From: a virus
Lineage: Duplodnaviria; Caudoviricetes
IMG/VR virus record: IMGVR_UViG_3300048592_000249
Span: 1 to 26,469 of that record
Length of the DNA stretch: 26,469 nucleotides
Reading direction: 5' to 3' (one strand)
Shown: positions 1-26,469 of the stretch, in pieces
Layout: every line of letters begins with the position of its first letter
Position numbering within the stretch: position 1 is the stretch's first letter
The notes under the pieces: generated by a model
Database searches by the model: none
The model's input: the letters and a program-made list of their open reading frames with translations, nothing else
Told to the model about the DNA's origin: nothing
Position numbers and translations under genes: made by a program

Positions 1-277
1 ATGCTCTACAACTGCTCCTCGCTGCAGTCGCTGCCTGCTGGCATGACGTTGGGCGCGGTGACCAACGCGAGCAGCATGCTCTACGGCTGCTCCTCGCTGC
101 AGTCGCTGCCTGCTGGCATGACGTTGGGCGCGGTGACCAACGCGAGCAGCATGCTCTACAACTGCTCCTCGCTGCAGTCGCTGCCTGCTGGCATGACGTT
201 GGGCGCGGTGACCAACGCGAGCAGCATGCTCTACGGCTGCGCCTCGCTGCAGTCGCTGCCAGCTGGCATGACGTTGG
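1..277 (+). repeat. Tandem 75-bp coding repeat, about 3.7 copies visible
   Basis: Units start at 1, 76, 151 and 226. Units 1-3 are identical except codon 4, which alternates AAC/GGC. Confidence 0.95.
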
Positions 278-522
278 CGGCATGCACAACGACGACGAGC
301 GCATTTAGCGGATGTACGTCCCTGCAAGCGGCCGATGGCATGGCAATCCCCGAATCTTTCTCCATCGCCTCATGCAACTTCGACGCCGCGGCACTGGATG
401 CGCTCTATACCGCATTGCCAACGGTTACTGGCAAGACCCTCACTGTGACCGGCAACCCAGGCACTAGCGGCGACACCCCATCTATCGCGACGGCCAAGGG
501 CTGGACCGTTGCCGGGAGTTGA
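1..522 (+). CDS. C-terminal part (5' truncated by the window) of a leucine-rich 25-aa-repeat protein, BspA/DUF285-like
   Basis: Repeats MLY(N/G)CSSLQSLPAGMTLGAVTNASS, followed by the cap ...LDALYTALPTVTGKTLTVTGNPG...IATAKGWTV seen in phage LRR-type proteins. Confidence 0.75.
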   Translation: MLYNCSSLQSLPAGMTLGAVTNASSMLYGCSSLQSLPAGMTLGAVTNASSMLYNCSSLQSLPAGMTLGAVTNASSMLYGCASLQSLPAGMTLAACTTTTSAFSGCTSLQAADGMAIPESFSIASCNFDAAALDALYTALPTVTGKTLTVTGNPGTSGDTPSIATAKGWTVAGS

Positions 523-1604: not shown

Positions 1605-3050
1605 ATGAATGTCTCCCTCCAGAGCCCCGCCACCCGGCGGGGTTCGTCCTTTGGGCCTGCTCACGGCGCCTCGCGCCTGTTCGACCTGGTCGTGGGCCCC
1701 TGGGCGCTCACGCCTGCCATGCTCGACGAACTGCAGGCGGTCTACTGCACGCACCTGCGTGGCGAAAAAATCGACCTGCGCGCCGTCGAGGCCAGCATCG
1801 GCCGGCCATTGGCCAATCAGCAGCGTAGTTTCGATGTGGTCGACGGCGTCGCTGTCCTGCCAGTGCAGGGTGTCATCTCGCCCAAGGCGAACCTCATGAC
1901 CCAAATCAGCGGCGGCGCCTCTGCGCAGCTGCTGCAACGAGATCTGGCCACCGCCATGGCGGACCCGCGGGTCTCGGCCATCGTGCTGGCCATCGACAGC
2001 CCCGGCGGCTCCGTCTTCGGCTCGCCCGACCTGGCCGCCCAGGTCTTCGCAGCGCGCGACACCAAGCCCATCGTCGCCCACACCGACGGCCTGATGGCCT
2101 CGGCCGCGTACTGGATCGGCAGCGCCGCTGGGGCGGTCTACAACTCCGGCCCCACCGTGATGGTGGGCTCGATCGGCGTCGTCGCCCGCCACATCAACGC
2201 CAACCGGCCCGACGTGACCGAGATCACCGCCGGGGCCTACAAGCGGATCGCCAGTGATGCCGGCCCCCTCACGGAAGAGGGCCGCGCCTACATGCAGGCG
2301 CAGGTCGACTACTACTACAGCCTGTTCGTCGATGCCGTGGCCCAGCACCGCGGCGTGTCGACCGAACAGGTGCTCTCTGACATGGCCGATGGCCGTGTCT
2401 TCATCGGCCAGCAGGCCATCGACGCGGGGCTCGTGGACGGTGTTTCCACGCTCGACGCGCTGGTGGCCCAGATGGCCGCTGACCCCGGCAGCGTGACGCG
2501 CCGCCCGGGATCTCCGAAGCGCCGCAGCGCCCGGGGCCCCCGCGCCGACGCCGATGCTGCCTCCGTGCCCGAGGCCTGCGCCGGTGACGCGCGGGTCGAA
2601 GGGAATTGCCCAGCGGTCGCCGGTGATGCGCCCGCGGATCCACCGACCACTGAAAGGACCGACATCATGCCACCGGCAGATGCCAACCTCACGCGTGAGT
2701 CTCTGGAGTGCGACCACGCGCCGCTCATGGCGGCCCTGCGCTCCGACTTCCTGGCCGAAGGTGCCGCGCAGGAGCGCGCGCGCATCGACGCCGTGCGCCA
2801 GCAGGCGCTCCCGGGCCACGAGGCCCTCATCGACCGCTTGGCCATGGATGGCCGCACCACCGGCCCCGAAGCGGCCGCCGCGGTGCTGGCCGCCGAGCGC
2901 ACCGCTCGCCAGGCCGCTGCCGCAGCCCACCAGGCCGACGCTCCAGCGCCTGCCCCGGCGGCCGCTGCCCCGTCCGATGCGCCGCGCGATGCACGCTCCA
3001 TCGCCAAGAGCGCCGTCGCGCTGCTCGACGGTATCCGCCCCACCAAGTAA
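1605..3050 (+). CDS. Head maturation protease, S49 family (lambda gpC-like), with C-terminal scaffold region
   Basis: Motifs IDSPGGSV, MASAAYWIGS, VGSIGV, GAYK, DGRVFIGQQAIDAGLVD. GAGG RBS. Lies upstream of the decoration and capsid genes. Confidence 0.93.
   Translation: MNVSLQSPATRRGSSFGPAHGASRLFDLVVGPWALTPAMLDELQAVYCTHLRGEKIDLRAVEASIGRPLANQQRSFDVVDGVAVLPVQGVISPKANLMTQISGGASAQLLQRDLATAMADPRVSAIVLAIDSPGGSVFGSPDLAAQVFAARDTKPIVAHTDGLMASAAYWIGSAAGAVYNSGPTVMVGSIGVVARHINANRPDVTEITAGAYKRIASDAGPLTEEGRAYMQAQVDYYYSLFVDAVAQHRGVSTEQVLSDMADGRVFIGQQAIDAGLVDGVSTLDALVAQMAADPGSVTRRPGSPKRRSARGPRADADAASVPEACAGDARVEGNCPAVAGDAPADPPTTERTDIMPPADANLTRESLECDHAPLMAALRSDFLAEGAAQERARIDAVRQQALPGHEALIDRLAMDGRTTGPEAAAAVLAAERTARQAAAAAHQADAPAPAPAAAAPSDAPRDARSIAKSAVALLDGIRPTK
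2667..3050 (+). CDS. Putative in-frame scaffolding protein (lambda Nu3-like, 127 aa)
   Basis: Internal in-frame ATG preceded by GAAAGGA. Ala-rich helical sequence GAAQERARIDAV. Matches the lambda C/Nu3 arrangement. Confidence 0.7.
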   Translation: MPPADANLTRESLECDHAPLMAALRSDFLAEGAAQERARIDAVRQQALPGHEALIDRLAMDGRTTGPEAAAAVLAAERTARQAAAAAHQADAPAPAPAAAAPSDAPRDARSIAKSAVALLDGIRPTK

Positions 3051-3062
3051 GGAGAACGCACC

Positions 3063-3443
3063 ATGGCTTTCATGGCGACCTTCCGCTCCGATGGCTTCAC
3101 CCCCGACCAGCTGGTCGCGGGCAACGCCCATCTGCTCTTCTCGGAGCAAATCACCCTCGTTTCCGGCCAGAACCTGACCCGCGGCGCCGTGCTCGGCAAG
3201 ATCACCGCCAGCGGCAAGTACACGCTGAGCGCGTCGGCGGCCGTTGACGGCTCGCAGACCCCGGTGGCCATCCTCGTCGACGACTGCGACGCCAGCGCCG
3301 GCGACAAGGTGACGCTGGTCTACACGCGCGGCGACTTCCAGGACGCCGGACTCACGCTGGGCGCCGGGCACACCCTGACCAGCATCGCTGCCGCGCTCAA
3401 GGACGCCGGCATCTTCATTCACCTGACCCAAGGGGGCGCCTGA
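3063..3443 (+). CDS. Head decoration protein (lambda gpD-like)
   Basis: AAGGAG RBS; GQNLTRGAVLGKITASGKY...DGSQTPVAIL motif; lies between the protease and capsid genes. Confidence 0.9.
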   Translation: MAFMATFRSDGFTPDQLVAGNAHLLFSEQITLVSGQNLTRGAVLGKITASGKYTLSASAAVDGSQTPVAILVDDCDASAGDKVTLVYTRGDFQDAGLTLGAGHTLTSIAAALKDAGIFIHLTQGGA

Positions 3444-3445
3444 TC

Positions 3446-4471
3446 ATGGCCGACCTGTTCAGCACCGATACCCTGGCCGCCATCGTCGAAGACCTGCGCA
3501 TGCCGGCCAATGGCCTGGCCGGTCGCTACTTCACGAACGTCCAGACCTGCGACACCGAGGAAATCCACTTCGATGTCGACTCCAAGCCTCGCCGCATGAG
3601 CCCCTTCGTGTCGCCCCTCGTGGGCGGCAAGGTGGTGCGCAGCCGCGGCTTCGCCGCCAAGACGTTCAAGCCCGCGTACATCAAGGACAAGCGCGTTTTT
3701 CACCCGGGCCGCTCCATCAAGCGCGCCATGGGTGAGCGCGTCGGCGGTGGCCAATACAGCCCCGAAGAGCGCCTGCAGCTGCTGGTGGCCCAGGACCTGC
3801 AAGACCAGCTCGACATGCTCGAGCGCCGCATCGAGTGGATGGCCGCCCAAGCCATGCACTCAGGCGCTGTCACCATCACCGGCGAGGACTACCCCACCGT
3901 CGCGGTCGACTTCGGCCGCGACGCGGGTCTCACCGTCGTCAAGGTCGGTGGCAACCGCTGGGGCCAGGCCGGCATCAAGCCACTCGATGACCTCCAGGAC
4001 TGGTCGGACACGATGGTCCAGAAGACCGGTGTGGCCATGACAGAGGTCGCGATGACGGTCGACGTGTGGAAGATCTTCCGCGCCGATTCGGACGTGAAAG
4101 ACCGCCTGGCCCGCTGGCGCGGCAACAGCACCATGCAGACCGACGCGCACCAGCGCGAGGGCCTCGTGTTCCAGGGCATGGTCGACCAGTTCGCGATCTA
4201 CACGTACAGCGGTTGGGTGGTCGACCCGTTGACCGACATCGAGGGCTCCATCCTGCCGGCGGGCACCGTCATCGGTGCGGCTGGCCCGGCCTACGTCGAG
4301 GGCACCCGCCACTTCGGCGCCATCCTCGATGTCGACAGCCTGCAAGCGGTGGAGTATTTCACCAAGAGCTGGGTCGAGCAGGATCCGTCGTTGCGCTACC
4401 TGCTCATGCAGTCCGCGCCGCTGTTGGTCCCCGAACGCGTGAACGCCACGTTCCGCGCCACCGTCCTCTGA
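3446..4471 (+). CDS. Major capsid protein (lambda gpE family)
   Basis: 341 aa with SPFVSP, FKPAYIKDK, RRIEWMAAQ, VDFGRD and LLMQSAPL motifs. Confidence 0.95.
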   Translation: MADLFSTDTLAAIVEDLRMPANGLAGRYFTNVQTCDTEEIHFDVDSKPRRMSPFVSPLVGGKVVRSRGFAAKTFKPAYIKDKRVFHPGRSIKRAMGERVGGGQYSPEERLQLLVAQDLQDQLDMLERRIEWMAAQAMHSGAVTITGEDYPTVAVDFGRDAGLTVVKVGGNRWGQAGIKPLDDLQDWSDTMVQKTGVAMTEVAMTVDVWKIFRADSDVKDRLARWRGNSTMQTDAHQREGLVFQGMVDQFAIYTYSGWVVDPLTDIEGSILPAGTVIGAAGPAYVEGTRHFGAILDVDSLQAVEYFTKSWVEQDPSLRYLLMQSAPLLVPERVNATFRATVL

Positions 4472-4484
4472 CCGGAGCCTGGAC

Positions 4485-4715
4485 ATGGCCAAGACCGCAA
4501 GACCCGCCGCGCCCGGCCTGGTGTGCGTGCAGATGCGCTGCTCCGTGGTGCTGGGCAGTGCAGATGCGCCGCAGACTTACCACGCAGGCAGCCAGGCCAG
4601 CGTGGAACAGGCAGATGCGCAGCGCCTGATCGACCTGGGCGCGGCCATCCGCGTCGACGCCGACGAACCGTCCGCTACCGCGGAGTCCGCCGCGGCCGGC
4701 GAGGTGGCGCAGTGA
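4485..4715 (+). CDS. Small head-associated protein (gpFI position)
   Basis: GGAG RBS; directly follows the capsid gene; AQRLIDLGAA motif. Confidence 0.7.
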   Translation: MAKTARPAAPGLVCVQMRCSVVLGSADAPQTYHAGSQASVEQADAQRLIDLGAAIRVDADEPSATAESAAAGEVAQ

Positions 4716-5005
4716 TCGATGCCGACCTCGCCACGTTCTTCGATGTCGACGAGTTCGCGCGGGAGTTCACGAGGGCTCGCGCCGCTGCGGCCGATCTCGT
4801 GTTCCCGGGCATCCTCGGCGTCGTCGATGAGCATGTCTTCGACTCGCACGCCACCGTGACCATGCGTCGCCTGCGGTTCGCCGCGGCGCACGATGTCCAG
4901 GCCGGCGACACCATCACCGATGGGGTCTCGTCCTGGCTCGTCGAGCGGGTGGAACTGCGCGTCGAGGGTAGCGAGGCCGAAGCTGTCTTGGTGATCTCAG
5001 CATGA
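4712..5005 (+). CDS. Head-tail joining protein (gpFII-like, 97 aa)
   Basis: GTG overlaps the upstream TGA, with a GAGG RBS. DLATFFDVDEFA...GDTIT beta-rich pattern. The upstream ATG at 4523 in the ORF track is not used. Confidence 0.75.
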   Translation: MIDADLATFFDVDEFAREFTRARAAAADLVFPGILGVVDEHVFDSHATVTMRRLRFAAAHDVQAGDTITDGVSSWLVERVELRVEGSEAEAVLVISA

Positions 5006-5436
5006 CCCAAAGCACCCGCTACACCATCGGGCAGGCGCTGTTTGGCGTGGTCTCGTCTGTGGCCACGGCCAACAGCGCGGCGGCGGTCTTCAATCCGCCG
5101 CTGCCGCTGGCCAGGCCGCAGTCGAGTCGCACGCTGTTCTTGCTCGATCGTGGCGACCGCCTTCTCGAGCAGCCGCAGCAGCGAGAGAAGCGGCGCTGTC
5201 GCTTCGTGCTCGGCGCGCTGGTGTCGACGACAGACGCGCACGCGGAGGTCGACGAGCTGCACTTCGCCGCCCGTATGGCCATCCAGGCGCTGTGCAGCAA
5301 AGACCTCGCCGAGGAGGCGCACACCGTGCGCGAAACCGAGGTCGAGCCCGAACTGCGCGACTCCGGTGCCAGCGGCGCGCTGCTGCTCAGCGCCTATGAG
5401 ATCGACTATCGCCAGGTCTACCCGGCCGTGCCCTGA
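5002..5436 (+). CDS. Putative tail terminator/completion protein
   Basis: ATGA overlap with the upstream gene; 144 aa; immediately before the tail tube gene; ends YEIDY. Confidence 0.65.
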   Translation: MTQSTRYTIGQALFGVVSSVATANSAAAVFNPPLPLARPQSSRTLFLLDRGDRLLEQPQQREKRRCRFVLGALVSTTDAHAEVDELHFAARMAIQALCSKDLAEEAHTVRETEVEPELRDSGASGALLLSAYEIDYRQVYPAVP

Positions 5437-5466
5437 CCCCTTCCTTCCCTTTTTCAAGGAACCATC

Positions 5467-6222
5467 ATGTCTCTGTCCAATGCACAGGGTTTCATCGGCG
5501 CGTTCGACGTGCTGATGGCCCCCATCGCCAGCAATGGCGACCTGGGTCTAATGAAGAACGTGGGCAACTGCACCAAGTTCTCGATCAAGCCAAACTCGAC
5601 GATCAAGGAGCAGAAGTCGCGCCGGCGCGACACCTACGGCCAGATCCTCGAGACCGTGGCGCTGCAGGAGCCCGGTGAACTGAGCGTCACGCTCGAAACC
5701 GTCAACCGCGACAACCTGCGCTACTGCGTCATGGGTGAAGATGCCACCTACACCCAGACCGGTGCGACCGTCGTCGACGAGGTCGTGGTCATGCGCCTGG
5801 ACGGCTGGGTCCAGCTCGCCGCCGAGGACCTGCAGGCGACGGTGACGCTCACGCACACCAGCGGCACCCCGACCTACGTCGAGGGCACCGACTACGAGAT
5901 CAACCGCCGTACCGGCATGGTCCGTGCCATCACTGGCGGCGCCATCTCCGACGCGCAGTCCTGCAAGATCGACTATGTCAGTAACACGTTCACCGGCGCG
6001 GCCATCCGCGGCAACGTGCAGCCGCAGCTTCGCGTCTACATGAAGCTCGATGGTCTGAACAAGGTCGATGACTCGCTGTACCTGGCCGAGTTCTATGAGG
6101 TCGTGTTGACGCCGTCGGGGGAGTTCGACTTCATGAAGGACGACTGGAACTCGATCGAGCTCACCGGCAAGCTCAAGACGCCGCCGTCCAAGAGCGAGCC
6201 ATTCGTCATCCGCCAGCGCTGA
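5467..6222 (+). CDS. Major tail tube protein
   Basis: AAGGA RBS; 251 aa beta-rich protein (VGNCTKFSI...YVEGTDYEIN...IELTGK) upstream of the tape measure gene. Confidence 0.85.
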   Translation: MSLSNAQGFIGAFDVLMAPIASNGDLGLMKNVGNCTKFSIKPNSTIKEQKSRRRDTYGQILETVALQEPGELSVTLETVNRDNLRYCVMGEDATYTQTGATVVDEVVVMRLDGWVQLAAEDLQATVTLTHTSGTPTYVEGTDYEINRRTGMVRAITGGAISDAQSCKIDYVSNTFTGAAIRGNVQPQLRVYMKLDGLNKVDDSLYLAEFYEVVLTPSGEFDFMKDDWNSIELTGKLKTPPSKSEPFVIRQR

Positions 6223-19513: not shown

Positions 19514-20022
19514 TACCGCTGGCGCCGGTCCTGGGCGTCTTGCGCGCCGTTCCGGTGTGGGCCTGGGCACTGGCCGCCTGCCTCGCCTGGGGCGGTTGGC
19601 AGCGGCACCGCGCCACCTCCGCTGCCGCCGCGCTGCAGCACGCCCAGGCAGCGGCCGCCGCCGAGCGCGAGACCGCGTTGCAAGCGTCCATCGCCGAGAC
19701 CCAGCGCCGCTTGAAGGCGCAACAGGAGATTGCCCATGCTGCTGACCTTGCCGCGTCTCGCGCGCGTGCTGACGCTGCCGCTGCTGCCGATGCTGCTGGC
19801 CGCCTGCGGCAGCGCATTGCCGCTGTCCAGGCCAACGCCCGCGCCAGCCATCCCGCCGCTGCCGGCGCAGGCGCGGCAGACCGACTCGGCGACGCACTCG
19901 CAGCGTGCGCAGACCAGTATCGAGGCGTGGCTGCAGCCGCAGACCGCGCCATTGCCGCCGGGCTCGCCTGCGAGCGCGCCTACGACTCGTTGACCGGGGA
20001 TACCAATGAGACTACGAGATGA
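19510..20022 (+). CDS. Rz: Rz-like inner-membrane spanin (170 aa)
   Basis: GTG overlaps the endolysin stop; N-terminal TM segment, Ala-rich coiled coil and AGLACERAYDSL terminus. Confidence 0.8.
   Translation: MIPLAPVLGVLRAVPVWAWALAACLAWGGWQRHRATSAAAALQHAQAAAAAERETALQASIAETQRRLKAQQEIAHAADLAASRARADAAAAADAAGRLRQRIAAVQANARASHPAAAGAGAADRLGDALAACADQYRGVAAAADRAIAAGLACERAYDSLTGDTNETTR
19736..19993 (+). CDS. Rz1: Rz1-like outer-membrane lipoprotein spanin embedded in Rz (85 aa)
   Basis: AGGAG RBS; signal peptide with lipobox LLAAC; Pro-rich mature part; +1 frame wholly inside Rz. Confidence 0.8.
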   Translation: MLLTLPRLARVLTLPLLPMLLAACGSALPLSRPTPAPAIPPLPAQARQTDSATHSQRAQTSIEAWLQPQTAPLPPGSPASAPTTR

Positions 20023-21046
20023 ACCGATCGTGACCCGGCTGGTTGCTGCCGCCGCGGCGTGCGCCATCTGGCTGATGTGGGCGTTGCTGTGGCCTGGCGT
20101 GGCCCAGGCCCAGGCATCCGCCCCGGCCAGCGCCTGCCCGGCCGGCATCGACTGCGGCAGCGCCTGCGGTGCGGCTGCTACGGGCAAGCGCGTCGGTACG
20201 GCCGAGCCGGTGTCGCTCGCTGCGTCCGATGCCGCGGGGCTGGAGGTCGGCCCCGACGGCTACTGGCGGCACTGCGTGCTCGTGCCGACCCCGGGCACGG
20301 CCTGCGGCGCCGACGGCGTGGGAATCTCCCCGACCGGCGGCACGTATCGTTGGGCGCGGCCTGGCTGGCGCGTGGACGACAACGGCCGTTGGGCCGAGTG
20401 TGACCGCCCGTGCCTGGCCCCTGCAATGACTCCGCGGCCGAAGGCGTGGACTGTCGACGGGCGCACATGCGTGGGCGACCCCGACCGATCGCTTGCACAT
20501 GGGCAAACCGGCTACTGGGCGCAGTGGGACGGCTCGATGCGCGGGCAGCACATCGAGCGCTGCGACGACGGCGTGCGCCGGGTGACCGGCCAGACATGCG
20601 CGCCGGCCATGCAGTGCGACACCGCCATCACGGTGATGCGCGATGGCCGGACGTACAGCTACAACGGGCGCCGGCAGGGCGCCGAGGTGCCGCTGGGCGG
20701 CTACGCGCAGGCCACCGCCGCAGACGGCACGACGCTGCGCGTGCGGTGCGATGCCGGGCGCTGGGTGGTCGCGCCACAGTGCCAGCCGCCGCACCAGTGG
20801 GTGCAGCAGTACACCCGCGATCGACGTGTCTACCGCGGCGACGCACCGGCCCTGAATCCGGGCGAGCGGGTGACGCTCACTCAGGTCGAGGGGAGCATCG
20901 GCCCCGGAGGCAAGCCGCGCACCCGCGTGCTGGAGTGCGGCGAGGATGGGCGGTTGACCACGCGGGTCGGGCTGTCGGTGCCTGCGCCGCATGTGTCGCG
21001 GCAGGGCGATGCCCGCGTGGGCGCTGCGAGCTGGCCGGGGCGGTAG
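20006..21046 (+). CDS. Cys-rich exported protein (346 aa) of unknown function
   Basis: Hydrophobic signal ending AQA; 14 Cys in the mature part; three modules ending in a C-(D/G)-x-(D)G turn motif. Confidence 0.75.
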   Translation: MRLRDEPIVTRLVAAAAACAIWLMWALLWPGVAQAQASAPASACPAGIDCGSACGAAATGKRVGTAEPVSLAASDAAGLEVGPDGYWRHCVLVPTPGTACGADGVGISPTGGTYRWARPGWRVDDNGRWAECDRPCLAPAMTPRPKAWTVDGRTCVGDPDRSLAHGQTGYWAQWDGSMRGQHIERCDDGVRRVTGQTCAPAMQCDTAITVMRDGRTYSYNGRRQGAEVPLGGYAQATAADGTTLRVRCDAGRWVVAPQCQPPHQWVQQYTRDRRVYRGDAPALNPGERVTLTQVEGSIGPGGKPRTRVLECGEDGRLTTRVGLSVPAPHVSRQGDARVGAASWPGR

Positions 21047-22292: not shown

Positions 22293-22510
22293 CTGTGCCG
22301 GTTCTGTGCCGGGTCTAGGCCGATTTCCGTCGTGGCGCCGCGCGCAAGTCCTTGATTTCACACGCGCCGTGACGACCGGAACGTCTTGTGATTCTGGTCG
22401 TCGTGGGTTCGAGTCCCATCAGCCACCCCACCGAATTCCCCTCTGAGAGGGGCACTTCGGGGCCGGTTTCGTTGCCCGCCGCGCGCGACGGTTGTGCCAG
22501 AGTTGTGCCG
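22293..22510. other. attP region: paired arm-type repeats, IHF box and core
   Basis: CTGTGCCGG twice (22293, 22304) and GTTGTGCCR twice (22491, 22502), each pair 11 bp apart. AATCAAGGACTTG on the minus strand at 22345-22357 matches WATCAANNNNTTR. Confidence 0.75.
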
Positions 22511-23598
22511 GTGGCCGGCACGTTCCCGGCCCATTCCGCGATGTGGCTGAGCCCCAGGTGCGCGTAGCGCTGCACCATCGCGAGACTGGCCCAGCCGCCG
22601 AGCTCTTGCAGCACCGGCAGCGGCGTGCCGGCCTGGACGTGCCAGCTCGCCCAGGTGTGCCTTAGGTCGTGGAATCGCAGCCACGGCACGCCAGCGCGCT
22701 CGCAGGCTTTGCGCCATGCGTGATTGCTGACCTTTCCGGTCGGTCCCACCGCCTTGGCCCAAGCCCCGTCGTCGAGCCGCTGCCAGTGCTCGACCGGGAA
22801 GACCCAGCGCCTGTGCTGCCCCGTCTGGCTGGCGAGCACCGCCAGAGCTTCGGCGTTCAGCGGCACGGTATGCGTGCGGCCGGCTTTCATCTCGGCGGCC
22901 TCGAACCACGCCAGCGCGCGAGCTTGGTCGATCTGCTGCCACGTCAGCAGCCGGACGTTGCTTTCGCGCAACCCCGTCGCCAGCGCGAACCTGGCCATTG
23001 CCTGCAGGTGGGGGGGTAGCTCGGCGAGCAGGCCGGCCGCTTGCTCGCGGGTGAGCCATGCGACGCGCTTGGTCGGTTCGTCAGCCTTGGCGATCGGCGG
23101 CACCGCCGCGAGCCAGCCGCGGCGGTGCGCGTAGTGCAGGATCGCGCTGAGCTGAGCCATGTGGCGGTTGACCGTCGCGCCGCTGGTCGCCTTCGGCTCG
23201 GGCGCAGGCCGCTTGGCGGCGTGGGCGCGTGCGATCTCGCGGGCGTTGACCGGCTGTGCGCGGCGCGCCTTGACCAGCCGGCGGATCAGATCATCGGTGA
23301 TCTCGGTCAGCAGCTTCCCCTGCAGGTAAACGCTGAGCCAGCGCAGCACGCGCTTGATCTCCTCAATGCTCTTGCGATGCTCGTGCTCGCCGAGCCATGC
23401 CACGACGGCCTGGTCCCAGGTTACGGACGGGGCTTCGCCGAGCCTCCTGGCGCGCCAGAGATCGCGCGCAAGGGTGGCGGCGTATTCCTTCGCCTCGGAG
23501 TGGTCCGAGGTGCCAGTGCTGCGTCGAGCGCGCTGGCCTGCGACCTCGCCGAGGTCAACCCACCACGTGCCTCGTTTGCCGCGCTGATAGAGCCGCAT
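22315..23598 (-). CDS. int: Phage integrase (tyrosine recombinase, 427 aa)
   Basis: GGAGG RBS before ATG 23598; arm-binding-type N-terminus; TGLRESN, RFHDLRHTWASW, LGGW and QRYAH catalytic motifs. Confidence 0.95.
   Translation of the reverse strand: MRLYQRGKRGTWWVDLGEVAGQRARRSTGTSDHSEAKEYAATLARDLWRARRLGEAPSVTWDQAVVAWLGEHEHRKSIEEIKRVLRWLSVYLQGKLLTEITDDLIRRLVKARRAQPVNAREIARAHAAKRPAPEPKATSGATVNRHMAQLSAILHYAHRRGWLAAVPPIAKADEPTKRVAWLTREQAAGLLAELPPHLQAMARFALATGLRESNVRLLTWQQIDQARALAWFEAAEMKAGRTHTVPLNAEALAVLASQTGQHRRWVFPVEHWQRLDDGAWAKAVGPTGKVSNHAWRKACERAGVPWLRFHDLRHTWASWHVQAGTPLPVLQELGGWASLAMVQRYAHLGLSHIAEWAGNVPATGTTLAQPSRAAGNETGPEVPLSEGNSVGWLMGLEPTTTRITRRSGRHGACEIKDLRAAPRRKSA
22386..22430 (+). other. 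attP core: 3' half of tRNA-His(GTG), not a complete tRNA
   Basis: TTGTGATTCTGGTCGTCGTGGGTTCGAGTCCCATCAGCCACCCCA covers the anticodon loop, T-arm, acceptor 3' strand and CCA. No D-arm or 5' acceptor strand lies upstream. Confidence 0.9.
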
Positions 23599-23780
23599 GG
23601 AGCCTCCCGAAATTTGCCGTACTGTTGCCGCAGCCAAGTCACGACGTCATCCTCGACGAGGACGAAAGCGCGGCCGACCTTGGCCGCCGGTAAGCCGCGA
23701 TTGTGGATGCAGTCGCTAACCGTCTCCGCGGTGGTCTTGAGCACCGCGGCTGCTTCGTCCAGCGTGAGCGTGCGGCTCAT
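23421..23780 (-). CDS. xis: Excisionase-like HTH DNA-binding protein (119 aa)
   Basis: LTLDEAAAVLKTTAETV...GLPAAKVGRAFV motif. The ATG overlaps the intI stop; the 3' end overlaps the int start by 178 nt. Confidence 0.85.
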   Translation of the reverse strand: MSRTLTLDEAAAVLKTTAETVSDCIHNRGLPAAKVGRAFVLVEDDVVTWLRQQYGKFREAPCGSISAANEARGGLTSARSQASALDAALAPRTTPRRRNTPPPLRAISGAPGGSAKPRP

Positions 23781-24838
23781 GCGGGGGCATCCAGCGGACT
23801 GCGCACACCTCGCCCGCCCTGGGTCGCGGGCAGAACGTGGGTGTAGATCATCGTCGTTTCGACATCCGCGTGCCCCAGCAGGGTCTGAATCGTGCGGATG
23901 TCGTAGCCGTCCTGGAGCAGGTGAGTCGCGAACGAATGCCGCAGCGTGTGCGGCGTCGCCCGCTTGAGAATGCCGGCTTGGCGCACGGCGCGCGCCATCA
24001 GGCGCTGGATGCCGTCCTCGTGCAGGTGGTGCCGTCGAATCGCCCCGGTGCGCGGGCAGGTGACGTAAGCGTCGGTGGCGAACACCCACTGCCACCGGAT
24101 GTCCTGGCCGGCGCGCGGGTACTTGGCGTGCAGGGCGTGCGGCAGTTCCACGTCGGCGCGGCCGGCGGCCACGTCGAGCTGATGCAGCGCGCGCCGCTGC
24201 TCGATAACTTCGCCAAGCTGGGATGCCAGCAAGCGCGGCAGCATGACGGTGCGGTCCTTGTTGCCCTTGCCCTCGCGCACGGTGATCGCGCCGGCCGCGA
24301 AGTCGACGTCCTGCACGCGCAGGCGCAGCCCCTCCATCAGCCGCATGCCGGTGCCGTAGAGCAACCGCAGCACCAGGCCGCGCACGCTGGACTGCGGGAT
24401 CTGGCGCCACAGCCGCGCCACCTCGTCGCGCGTGAGCACCACCGGCGGGCGCTGCGCCTGCTTGGCGCGCACGATGCCGTCGACCCACGGCAGATCGACC
24501 TGGAGCGCTTCGCGGTACACGAACAGCAGCGCGGCCAGCGCCTGGCGCTGCGTGCTGGCCGATACATCCCGCTCGGTGGCGAGATGGCTCAGGAACTGGC
24601 CGATCTCCGGCGCGCCCATCTCGAGCGGGTGGCGCTTGCCGGCCCACAAGACGAACTGCCGCGTCCAATGCCAGTACGCCTGCTCGGTGCGGCGGCTGTA
24701 GTGGCGGGTGCGGATGGCGCTGACCAGTGCATGCCGCAGGTGCCCGGGCTCGCCGGGCTGCGGTACAGCCCCAGGCGCGCAGGTCGCAGCGCGGCGCGTA
24801 ACGGCCGTACAGGTGGGCGGTGCGAGGGTGACGCTCAT
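23777..24838 (-). CDS. intI: Integron integrase (up to 353 aa)
   Basis: HYSRRTEQAY, STQRQALAALLF, LLYGTGMRLMEG, VREGKGNKDR, the integron-specific insertion LPHALHAKYPRAGQDIRWQWVF, HTLRHSFATHLL, LLGHADVETTMIYTHV and VRSPLD. All catalytic residues are present. Confidence 0.97.
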   Translation of the reverse strand: MSVTLAPPTCTAVTRRAATCAPGAVPQPGEPGHLRHALVSAIRTRHYSRRTEQAYWHWTRQFVLWAGKRHPLEMGAPEIGQFLSHLATERDVSASTQRQALAALLFVYREALQVDLPWVDGIVRAKQAQRPPVVLTRDEVARLWRQIPQSSVRGLVLRLLYGTGMRLMEGLRLRVQDVDFAAGAITVREGKGNKDRTVMLPRLLASQLGEVIEQRRALHQLDVAAGRADVELPHALHAKYPRAGQDIRWQWVFATDAYVTCPRTGAIRRHHLHEDGIQRLMARAVRQAGILKRATPHTLRHSFATHLLQDGYDIRTIQTLLGHADVETTMIYTHVLPATQGGRGVRSPLDAPA

Positions 24839-24846
24839 GGTGGAGC

Positions 24847-24887
24847 GGTGTTACGCCGCGGGTTTGGCGGTCGAATTCGCGTTGGGC
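24847..24887 (+). other. Putative attI site (crossover G/TT at 24881/24882)
   Basis: GTTGGGC core 43 bp upstream of the intI ATG with no attC hairpin of its own. GGTGTTACGCCGCGGG lies 31 bp before the core and resembles the attI1 direct-repeat region GATGTTACGCAGCAGGG (recalled sequence). Confidence 0.75.
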
Positions 24888-25216
24888 GTCTTGCGGCGCG
24901 CCAGCTCTGCGGCGCACATCGTGATGGCGCGTCGAGTGGCTGCCAGGGCATCTGTGCCGTAGGGCTCCACCACTTCCACGCCGTCGCCTTCCTGAGCATC
25001 GTGGTCCCATACCGGCTTGCGCACGATCACCGAATGCTTTGGCTCGTCGTACATCGGGTACGCGGTCACCTGCAGCCCGATACGTACCGCCAGCACAAAA
25101 GCGTCTTCGTTGTTGGTCAGTGGGTTCCACGGCCGCTCGCCAAAGCCGCTCGGCATCACCCACGGATAGGCGTGGCCGTTGGCCTGTGCTGCACGCATCA
25201 ACAGTTCGTCTTTCAT
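24851..25216 (-). CDS. Cassette 1 ORF: phage hypothetical protein (121 aa), possibly NinX/DUF2591-like
   Basis: AAGGA RBS; WNPLTNNEDAFVLAV...AATRRAITMCAAE motif common in phage early-region proteins. The stop codon lies in attI. Confidence 0.8.
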   Translation of the reverse strand: MKDELLMRAAQANGHAYPWVMPSGFGERPWNPLTNNEDAFVLAVRIGLQVTAYPMYDEPKHSVIVRKPVWDHDAQEGDGVEVVEPYGTDALAATRRAITMCAAELARRKTPNANSTAKPAA

Positions 25217-25245
25217 GCTCAATCCTTCTCGCTTCGGACCCTGCC

Positions 25246-25342
25246 GCCCAACTGGTCGGTCGAGGCGACGCCTTGCGGCGTCGCGGTTGTGGTCTGCGAA
25301 GGCTGGTGCGCCGCAAGGCGCGCCTCACCTCCAACGTTAGGC
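25246..25342 (+). repeat. attC site 1 (97 bp)
   Basis: R'' GCCCAAC, 5 nt, L'' GGTCGAGG (extra C), a perfect 12-bp inner stem (25269-25280/25309-25320), L' CCTCACC, 6 nt, R' GTTAGGC. Confidence 0.93.
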
Positions 25343-25343
25343 C

Positions 25344-25586
25344 TCAATGCTTCCGCACCAGGCCCGAGCGGAACTCTTGGCCGTTCGGGTCGATCACGAT
25401 GAACTCGCCGTTCTCCACCCGCACCTCAACATCGACACCGGTCGCGCTCTTGAACAGGCGCTTCACCCCTTCGATGCCGTTGTCACGCGGCAGTGGCGGC
25501 TTTGGGCATTCGCCGCTGTAGCCGTGGAACTTGAACATCTCTTCGCCTTGCGGCATTGGTTCTCCGCACAATTCGCACTTGCTCAT
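25344..25586 (-). CDS. Cassette 2 ORF: small putative metal-binding protein (80 aa)
   Basis: GGAAAGG RBS; CELCGEPMP...FKFHGYSGECPKPPL; the stop is 1 nt from the R' box. Confidence 0.8.
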   Translation of the reverse strand: MSKCELCGEPMPQGEEMFKFHGYSGECPKPPLPRDNGIEGVKRLFKSATGVDVEVRVENGEFIVIDPNGQEFRSGLVRKH

Positions 25587-25622
25587 CTCGTACCTTTCCG
25601 CCAGGCCTCGCCCGGCTCGTTG

Positions 25623-25647
25623 AAAACGCCCACCCTTGCGGGTCGGC
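25623..25647 (-). terminator. Terminator-like hairpin in the cassette 2 leader
   Basis: Minus strand GCCGACCC-GCAA-GGGTGGGC-GTTTT (one mismatch, short U tract). Confidence 0.4.
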
Positions 25648-25684
25648 TTGTGGTTGTGGTCAGGCCCTGGGCTTCGCGCCACAG

Positions 25685-25745
25685 GCCTAACACGTTGGTC
25701 AAGGGGACGTCCACAAGTGGCCGCCCCTTACCGCTGGGGTTAAGC
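25685..25745 (+). repeat. attC site 2 (61 bp)
   Basis: R'' GCCTAAC, 5 nt, L'' GGTCAAGG, L' CCTTACC, 6 nt, R' GTTAAGC. Confidence 0.93.
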
Positions 25746-25985
25746 GTCAACCGGCACGACAAAATGGCGCGTCCAGTCGGTGTCTCGCGGGGCCGACTTC
25801 TTAACCAGCGCCACCAGTTCATCGAAATGCTTTTGCGCTTCGTTCACCTTGTTGCGTGCGTCGGTTTCACTGTTCCGAGCGCGTGCTGTCAATTCGCACA
25901 TCCGGCCAAGGTAATCCTGTGCCGAAGCCACAGCAGCCACAGCGTTTGCAAGTTGTGTGTTCAGGCTCTGCTTTTGTTCACTCAT
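25740..25985 (-). CDS. Cassette 3 ORF: coiled-coil hypothetical protein (81 aa)
   Basis: AAAGGA RBS; the TAA stop is the TTA inside the attC2 R' box. Confidence 0.8.
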   Translation of the reverse strand: MSEQKQSLNTQLANAVAAVASAQDYLGRMCELTARARNSETDARNKVNEAQKHFDELVALVKKSAPRDTDWTRHFVVPVDA

Positions 25986-26016
25986 ATTCGTGTCCTTTGT
26001 GTGTATTAAAAACTCG

Positions 26017-26070
26017 GTTTAACAGGGCAGTCGAGCGGGACGCTACGCGCCCCTCACTTCTGCGTTGGGC
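26017..26070 (+). repeat. attC site 3 (54 bp)
   Basis: R'' GTTTAAC, 5 nt, L'' AGTCGAGC, L' CCTCACT, 5 nt, R' GTTGGGC. Confidence 0.88.
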
Positions 26071-26071
26071 G

Positions 26072-26289
26072 TCACGATTGCGCGTGCTGATCGCACTGTC
26101 GGTATTCGTACCGCTCCAGGCTCATGGCGTCGTCTTGTGCGGCTCGTAGGTCAGTTGCAGCATGGCCTTTGTCAGCTCGCCGTATTCCTCGCCCAGTACA
26201 GCCAGGGCGTGCAGCGGGTCGGTAGGCCAGGTCGGGAACTTCACCGTGGCTCGGGCCACTTCAGCGGTAATTTGGTCAATAACGTTCAT
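26072..26289 (-). pseudogene. Cassette 4 second ORF: MazG-like (NTP pyrophosphohydrolase fold) gene, apparently frameshifted by an internal deletion
   Basis: AAGGAG RBS; ALAVLGEEYGELTKAML motif; stops at 26122 after 55 aa. Another frame continues AMSLERYEYRQCDQHAQS* to a stop 1 nt from the R' box. Confidence 0.6.
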
Positions 26290-26432
26290 CTTTTTTTGCT
26301 CCTTTGCTTTATGTGATCTAGGTCGTGGTCCTGAACCGTCGCAACTGGGTTGCACCTTTGATTGGCTGAGTGTTTTCCGCCGCAGTAGGGGCATTTCGTT
26401 TTTGTTTCAGGCTTGCGGTCAATGGTTGTCAT
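26286..26432 (-). CDS. Cassette 4 first ORF: 48-aa putative zinc-binding peptide (absent from the ORF track)
   Basis: Translated by hand: MTTIDRKPETKTKCPYCGGKHSANQRCNPVATVQDHDLDHIKQRSKKR*. Its TGA overlaps the next ATG (ATGA). Confidence 0.6.
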   Translation of the reverse strand: MTTIDRKPETKTKCPYCGGKHSANQRCNPVATVQDHDLDHIKQRSKKR

Positions 26433-26442
26433 CGCGGCTCGC

Positions 26443-26469
26443 GCCCAACTGGCGCATCAACCCGGACCG
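26443..26469 (+). repeat. attC site 4, left half (truncated by the window end)
   Basis: R'' GCCCAAC, 5 nt, L'' CATCAACC, then CGGAC. The R'' is complementary to GTTGGGC at 26064. Confidence 0.8.

What the first reader, a model, noticed from the sequence alone, without database searches (positions are those of the whole stretch)
24851..26432. Cassette cargo resembles phage accessory genes, not typical bacterial integron cargo
Seen: a WNPL...AATRRAI-family protein, two small Cys/His metal-binding proteins, a coiled-coil protein and a MazG-like fold, all 48-121 aa. Known: lambdoid early regions hold variable small host-interaction genes, and some phage nucleotide pyrophosphatases counter nucleotide-signal defences. 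Inference: there may be a phage-specific cassette pool, possibly including anti-defence genes.
Basis: inference. Interest (0 to 1): 0.75.

Follow-up and report, generated by a model that had tools for sequence, protein, structure and literature searches.

The report
Phage-only pool of integron cassettes
A temperate phage carries a complete integron whose swappable gene cassettes hold phage-type genes written backwards relative to bacterial cassettes; the same cassettes recur with different neighbours in other phage-like arrays, so phages likely run their own gene-swapping pool, part of which (DNA methyltransferases) would counter host restriction defences.

Summary
Mostly confirmed. The ORFs lie in true integron cassettes (IntI, attI, three whole attC sites and part of a fourth), all antisense to attC and co-directional with intI-xis-int. 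A 100%-identical longer contig extends the array to eight attC sites plus a methyltransferase cassette.

The phage-pool idea passed its test. Of 41 metagenome loci of the first cargo gene, 40 had attC on the opposite strand and none a sense-strand attC nearby. Cassette 1 recurs letter for letter in four studies, cut at both crossover points. Across related viral integrons, antisense ORFs hit phage families in 51 of 150 cases (sense 1 of 148), and 0 of 171 had a relative among 169 bacterial cassettes. In most phages these families are ordinary, attC-free genes.

Corrections: the MazG-like gene is broken here (55-nt deletion) and its fold match is weak; the 48-aa ORF has no homologue or ribosome-binding site. 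No window gene matches a known anti-defence family; support for counter-defence comes only from methyltransferase enrichment in the wider pool.

This scan noted the layout before on other DNA (18 notes); my paper searches found no description. New variant of a known kind.

The parts
22400..22432 (+). tRNA 3'-end-like stretch beside the phage integrase, likely the attachment-site core
   Evidence: Sequence reads like a T-arm and acceptor end; ARAGORN finds no whole tRNA. Role inferred.
22485..23598 (-). phage tyrosine integrase (int); end approximate
   Evidence: phrog_1 E 9.5e-64, PF00589
23597..23780 (-). excisionase-like gene whose start overlaps the intI stop; 3' extent uncertain
   Evidence: ORF from ATG 23780; relatives follow intI in L003, L004, L013, L014, L045, L039, L069/L070; the name excisionase is inferred from position and size
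23777..24838 (-). integron integrase IntI, 353 aa, intact
   Evidence: TIGR02249 426 bits, cut-off 265; falls in a 54-row, mostly viral clade
24850..24887 (+). attI-like site; R box GTTGGGC at 24881-24887; ORF1 is read through it and stops at 24851
   Evidence: Same spacing and motif next to intI in L003, L004, L009, L010, L013; laid contigs diverge at 24878-24881
24851..25216 (-). cassette 1 gene, 121 aa, phrog_5086 family, alpha/beta fold, function unknown
   Evidence: phrog_5086 E 5e-17; model pLDDT 83.8; best fold matches are uncharacterised phage proteins; paralogue in L001 cassette 5, 39% identity
25246..25342 (+). attC 1, 97 nt
   Evidence: Bottom strand -35.9 kcal/mol, z -5.7; extra C in the L'' box (sequence)
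25344..25586 (-). cassette 2 gene, 80 aa; a conserved ~28-residue CxxC...H...C module fused to a variable C-terminal part
   Evidence: 36 viral loci, most sharing only the N-terminal module; no Pfam, PHROG or Atlas hit
25685..25745 (+). attC 2, 61 nt
   Evidence: Boxes and L''/L' pairing; folding alone not significant, z -1.5
25740..25985 (-). cassette 3 gene, 81 aa, helical; its stop codon lies inside the R' box
   Evidence: Two viral relatives without attC, 51% and 67% identity; the cassette recurs in run X1, cut at both crossover points
26017..26070 (+). attC 3, 54 nt
   Evidence: Boxes; folding alone not significant, z -0.8
26072..26289 (-). cassette 4 MazG-like gene, broken here by a 55-nt deletion; intact (90 aa) in L001 6495-6767
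   Evidence: profile hits YpjD E 0.0027; weak fold matches
26286..26432 (-). 48-aa ORF, doubtful gene
   Evidence: Self match only; no ribosome-binding motif, flat codon GC
26443..26469 (+). start of attC 4, cut by the contig end; whole in L001 6279-6341

Best explanation
The stretch is the first four cassettes of a complete phage-borne integron whose genes lie antisense to the attC sites and match phage accessory families; they would be read from the phage early promoter together with intI, xis and int, and the cassettes are likely swapped among phages by IntI. Shown: the sites, the orientation, the family matches, and the same cassette with different neighbours at exact crossover points. Inferred: (1) the flipped layout lets early-operon transcription express every cassette, whereas a bacterial sense cassette entering this array, or one of these entering a bacterial array, would face away from its promoter, which keeps the two pools apart; (2) IntI is made at prophage induction, so exchange happens during phage replication or co-infection, and a new cassette enters at attI as the last gene before intI; (3) the pool is fed from ordinary phage early genes and is enriched in DNA-modification genes that would blunt restriction. 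For the window's own genes the most likely roles are host-interaction or nucleotide-pool accessory functions; the MazG-like protein, where intact, is predicted to be a nucleotide pyrophosphohydrolase of unknown substrate.
For: Polarity: extra C at L'' position 4 in 125 of 149 viral attC sites; 189 attC upstream of intI on the expected strand, against 3 downstream and 1 on the other strand. Cassette signature: own R'' is the exact complement of the R' at the cassette start in 89 of 110, against 16 of 110 for the R' of the same attC. Orientation: 35 of 46 viral loci antisense, 7 unclear, 4 sense; 40 of 51 genome loci sense, 3 unclear, 8 antisense. PHROG hits 51 of 150 antisense versus 1 of 148 sense, and 18 of 70 versus 0 of 69 among neighbours of cassette 1 in metagenomes. 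Pools do not overlap: 43 of 171 phage cargo have a relative in another phage array, 0 of 171 among 169 bacterial cassettes. Mobility: cassette 1 with 0 differing letters in four studies, diverging at both crossover points; 29 different sequences follow it in 33 loci. Methyltransferases: 16 of 150 best hits versus 0 of 150 bacterial; 13 regions in 79.7 kb of arrays, 3 in 163.8 kb upstream, 0 in 236.6 kb downstream, 2 in 89.5 kb of bacterial arrays. RBS plus ATG inside the bottom strand of 26 of 65 long phage attC sites versus 4 of 63 bacterial. IntI clade of 54 rows, SH-aLRT 96: 48 viral, 5 antisense genome loci, 1 unclear.
Against: No expression, recombination or defence data. The plain PHROG hit rate does not separate the pools: bacterial sense cassettes hit 35 of 150 (p 0.055). 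The bacterial control is small (best 80 of 489 confirmed loci; scan stopped at 12 of 64 parts). The methyltransferase density used cassette methyltransferases as queries, which favours arrays. No window gene hits PADLOC or Pfam, and 150 other cargo proteins gave no named anti-signalling family. Only 1 of 41 metagenome loci shows an intI beside the array (many contigs are short), so host integrases may do part of the work. Three antisense viral loci fall outside the clade, and the tree is a quick one without bootstrap. The attC scanner was trained on these loci and misses decayed sites (L319).
Confidence: 0.8

Rival explanations
1. The pool is real but functionally unspecialised: any small phage early gene can be packaged between attC sites, and the window's genes have nothing to do with defence.
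For: Most family members are attC-free phage genes (75 of 80 and 67 of 80); 141 of 150 selected cargo proteins have no Pfam hit; the MazG-like gene is broken here; the window genes have no defence-related match.
Against: Methyltransferase density is about nine times that of the upstream phage DNA (biased queries); Mom-like, Lar-like and PAPS-reductase-like genes recur.
Confidence: 0.4
2. The array is mainly a counter-defence arsenal, and the MazG-like protein works like Atd1 by destroying a nucleotide alarm signal.
For: Ho et al. report a phage MazG-like protein that depletes (p)ppGpp and lies near methyltransferases (10.1101/2022.06.09.495361, passages); profile and fold point to MazG-type proteins; another cassette carries a dATP/dGTP pyrophosphohydrolase domain.
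Confidence: 0.25
3. The array is a piece of a bacterial chromosomal integron picked up by the phage, as in the Vibrio anguillarum phages of Qi et al.
For: Such captures are published (PMC9892861); the attC sites are of ordinary type; a few viral loci such as L050 do hold sense arrays.
Against: Antisense cargo, phage families, no overlap with 169 bacterial cassettes, a mostly viral IntI clade, and attI only about 40 nt from the intI start.
Confidence: 0.04

Closest known systems
Integrons and CALINs in phage genomes (Qi et al. 2023, PMC9892861; read part 2 of 7, section 3.4 and keyword passages, not the supplements)
   Same: IntI and attC sites in phages; phage attC sites shown to recombine with attI1; five methyltransferases in phage cassettes proposed as anti-restriction.
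   Different: Their complete integrons are Vibrio chromosomal fragments, class 1 integrons and one Shewanella prophage element. 'Antisense' and 'opposite' occur 0 times in the main text; no flipped cargo, phage IntI clade or separate pool is described in what I read.
Canonical integrons (Nivina et al. 2016, PMC5027507; keyword passages)
   Same: attC boxes, extrahelical base and the polarity of attC relative to intI and attI.
   Different: There the gene is read from Pc in the direction of the array, and the opposite orientation is described as not expressed. Here the sites keep their polarity but the genes are reversed and point toward intI.
Anti-phage defence cassettes of sedentary chromosomal integrons (10.1101/2024.07.02.601686; start of abstract and keyword passages)
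   Same: Cassette arrays as stores of small conflict genes.
   Different: Host side, defence genes. This would be the phage-side mirror, and counter-defence is untested.
MazG-like pyrophosphohydrolases: B. subtilis YpjD (2gta), Bacillus MazG (5ie9), cyanophage S-2L MazG-like (7ody), Atd1
   Same: Three-helix model; invariant E34, E35, E38 and E61; weak profile and fold matches.
   Different: Invariant Q64; no Pfam MazG hit in 49 members; substrate unknown; broken in the window.
Phage NinX (PF10765) and Phage_ABA_S (PF18066) families
   Same: Nearest named clusters to ORF1 in the Atlas at 0.85, a lead only; alpha/beta layout.
   Different: 0 of 83 family members hit either Pfam model at E 0.01.

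Membership tests
complete integron | integron integrase | tested here: met
   TIGR02249 426 bits, cut-off 265
complete integron | attC sites with R'', L'', L', R' boxes and extrahelical base | tested here: met
   Three whole sites in the window, eight in L001
complete integron | attI site between intI and the first cassette | tested here: met
   R box complementary to the first cassette's R''; motif conserved among close relatives; contigs diverge there. By sequence only.
canonical integron | cassette genes in the sense of attC, read from Pc | tested here: not met
   All window genes antisense; 51 of 150 versus 1 of 148 PHROG hits across viral arrays
complete integron | IntI-mediated excision and insertion | not testable with these tools
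   Indirect only: exact crossover boundaries and changing neighbours
MazG-like NTP pyrophosphohydrolase | all-alpha MazG fold | tested here: inconclusive
MazG-like NTP pyrophosphohydrolase | acidic metal-binding motif (EExxE...ExxD, recalled) | tested here: inconclusive
   E34, E35, E38 and E61 invariant; the last position is invariant Q64
MazG-like NTP pyrophosphohydrolase | intact reading frame in this window | tested here: not met
   55-nt deletion relative to L001
Atd1-type anti-defence protein | (p)ppGpp hydrolysis and rescue from TIR-STING | not testable with these tools
   Needs an assay; sequence not compared with Atd1
NinX / Phage_ABA_S (ORF1) | match to the Pfam model | tested here: not met
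   0 of 83 members at E 0.01; Atlas similarity 0.85 only
metal-binding Cys/His module (ORF2) | conserved CxxC...H...C ligands | tested here: met
   Kept in the 13 relatives printed; metal binding itself not testable

The most novel reading that the evidence does not exclude
Temperate phages of aquatic Proteobacteria keep their own integron system: a phage IntI lineage, attC sites adapted to reverse reading (ribosome-binding sites and start codons inside the hairpin loop, stop codons in the R' box) and a large cassette pool kept apart from the bacterial one by orientation. The pool is a reshuffled counter-defence library, the mirror of bacterial defence integrons, so antisense attC flanks would mark hundreds of unannotated phage genes as candidate defence inhibitors.
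Probability: 0.35. Interest if true: 0.9.

Novelty: new variant of a known kind. Interest (0 to 1): 0.72.

Why it matters
Integrons are treated as bacterial tools, and the phage examples in the paper I read are mostly captured bacterial pieces or arrays without an integrase. A phage-run cassette pool would explain part of the gene-by-gene mosaicism of phage early regions by site-specific recombination. It also gives a simple sequence tag, an attC on the opposite strand, for collecting accessory genes that phages exchange, which makes a screen for new defence inhibitors directly testable. Reversed orientation predicts that such arrays would not express resistance cassettes taken from bacteria.

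Full report
Setting. The window is a whole 26,469-nt virus record. The plus strand carries what read as head, tail and lysis genes (by inspection, not scanned). At the right end the minus strand carries, in reading order, the cargo ORFs, an integron integrase (24838-23777; TIGR02249 426 bits, cut-off 265), an excisionase-like gene whose start overlaps the intI stop, a phage integrase and a tRNA-end-like stretch near 22400-22432.

Observation. The five ORFs exist at 121, 80, 81, 55 and 48 aa. They lie between an attI-like site (R box 24881-24887) and attC sites at 25246-25342, 25685-25745, 26017-26070 and from 26443. Each L'' box has an extra C on the plus strand, as do 125 of 149 viral sites, so the plus strand is the top strand and every gene is antisense. 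Locus L001 is 100% identical over 10,350 and 344 nt and extends the array to eight attC sites, followed by a DNA methyltransferase gene (PADLOC MTase_II E 4e-104) that is bounded by a matching R'/R'' pair and a truncated attC. Upstream genes of L001 run in the same direction. Against L001 the window's MazG-like gene lacks 55 nt between short direct repeats and loses E61, Q64 and R71. The 48-aa ORF has no relative, no ribosome-binding motif and flat codon GC.

Are these real cassettes? A weight-matrix scanner trained on the viral loci found 189 attC upstream of intI on the expected strand, 3 downstream and 1 on the other strand in 71 loci. A cassette's R'' was the exact complement of the R' at its start in 89 of 110 cases, against 16 of 110 for the R' of the same site, as expected of units that were once circles. 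Contigs from four studies (wastewater, activated sludge, drinking water) hold cassette 1 with no differing letter and diverge at both crossover points; cassette 3 appears in one run with 30 differences and 6 gaps in about 325 nt, cut the same way. In metagenomes 29 different sequences follow cassette 1 in 33 loci, 23 of them scored as attC.

Is the pool phage-specific? By ORF coverage, 35 of 46 viral loci are antisense, 7 unclear and 4 sense; of 51 genome loci 40 are sense, 3 unclear and 8 antisense. Antisense ORFs of viral arrays hit PHROGs in 51 of 150 cases, sense ORFs in 1 of 148. Bacterial sense cassettes also hit PHROGs (35 of 150), so the rate alone does not discriminate (p 0.055), but the best-hit families do not overlap, and by BLAST 43 of 171 phage cargo proteins have a relative in another phage array and none among 169 bacterial cassettes. 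In a quick tree of 132 integrases the window's enzyme lies in a 54-row clade (SH-aLRT 96) of 48 viral loci, 5 antisense genome loci and 1 unclear one; three antisense viral loci lie outside. The bacterial sample is small and chosen by similarity.

ORF1 (phrog_5086): in a metagenome scan not limited to viruses, 39 of 41 loci have a near antisense attC, 1 a distant one, 1 none, and none a near sense site; their neighbours are also antisense (18 of 70 versus 0 of 69 PHROG hits). Among 80 mostly distant viral relatives 75 have no attC and 4 are antisense-flanked; 13 GenBank phage records hold it. MazG-like: 67 of 80 viral loci have no attC and 10, self included, are antisense-flanked; 38 GenBank phage records and no plasmid hold it. 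ORF2: 6 of 36 antisense, self included, the rest none; most share only the Cys/His module. ORF3: two relatives, no attC. In 401 genomes of one betaproteobacterial family, ORF1 occurred in 8 and the MazG-like gene in 2; three loci had an attC, all antisense. So the families are ordinary phage genes, some copies of which have been packaged as antisense cassettes. None was found as a sense cassette.

Anti-defence. No window gene matches PADLOC or Pfam. The intact MazG-like protein folds as three helices (pLDDT 95); its profile hits YpjD at E 0.0027, and MazG-type structures are among the top but weak fold matches. Atd1 shows that such proteins can counter defence (10.1101/2022.06.09.495361, passages), but the fold also serves nucleotide cleaning and no substrate can be read from it. 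ORF1 models at pLDDT 83.8 and resembles uncharacterised phage proteins. The wider pool gives better support: 16 of 150 best hits are DNA methyltransferases against 0 of 150 bacterial, plus 2 Mom-like, 3 PAPS-reductase-like and 1 Lar-like, and methyltransferase density is 1.63 per 10 kb in arrays against 0.18 upstream and 0.22 in bacterial arrays (the queries were cassette genes, which inflates the contrast). Qi et al. proposed the same role for five phage cassette methyltransferases. Pfam gave 9 hits in 150 other cargo proteins, none named as an inhibitor of nucleotide signalling; I did not check which such models the library holds.

Mechanism. Shown: anatomy, orientation and changing neighbours. 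Inferred: cargo, intI, xis and int form one early transcript, since the genes are closely packed on one strand and attI lies about 40 nt from the intI start; IntI would then appear at induction. The sites look adapted to reverse reading: 71 of 110 stops fall within 30 nt before or inside the R'/L' arm and 30 read further into the hairpin, and 26 of 65 long phage attC sites carry a ribosome-binding motif and ATG on the bottom strand, against 4 of 63 bacterial sites and 0 of 65 on their own top strand. Because attC polarity fixes insertion direction (Nivina et al.), a cassette moved between pools would face away from its promoter, which would keep the pools apart.

Novelty. Eight paper searches found Qi et al. 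2023 as the only study of integrons in phages; in the parts read it does not describe reversed cargo or a separate pool. I did not read its supplements, which list annotations and may hold such cases, nor the Burkholderia prophage paper listed, and most subscription journals are not in the library. Earlier notes of this scan describe the same layout in at least 18 other genomes; they are unchecked leads, not support, and none matched this protein or genome. Verdict: a new variant of the integron; the phage-specific pool is well supported, and counter-defence is plausible for the pool and unshown for these five genes.

Noticed in passing
L001 5425-5542 and many viral attC sites: Long attC loops carry a ribosome-binding motif and the ATG of the next antisense gene (26 of 65 long phage sites, 4 of 63 bacterial), and many cargo proteins begin or end with peptides read from the attC arms.
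   Followed up: partly
L001 3229-4272: The distal methyltransferase gene is bounded by a matching R'/R'' pair but its attC is truncated, as if the oldest cassette has become fixed in the operon.
   Followed up: partly
window 25500-25586: A ~28-residue CxxC...H...C module is 71-93% identical in many phages yet fused to unrelated C-terminal parts.
   Followed up: partly
L024, downstream of intI: Three attC sites lie downstream of intI in the same polarity, the only such case among 71 viral loci.
   Followed up: no
L014 6717-7991: Two nearly identical cassettes in tandem at the head of the array, a likely recent duplication.
   Followed up: no
L396 4775-4833: An attC in the opposite polarity about 2 kb from the first array, possibly a second array in a divergent operon.
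   Followed up: no
window 1-522: A 75-nt, four-copy repeat encodes a leucine-rich 25-residue repeat protein, unusual at the start of a phage head gene region.
   Followed up: no
window 20006-21046: A 346-aa cysteine-rich ORF after the lysis genes with no Pfam or PHROG match.
   Followed up: no
L410 (virus Rctr41k) 2317-5678: A GenBank phage with an IntI-like gene (47% identity) at the end of a run of small co-directional genes, but no attC by my scanner.
   Followed up: partly
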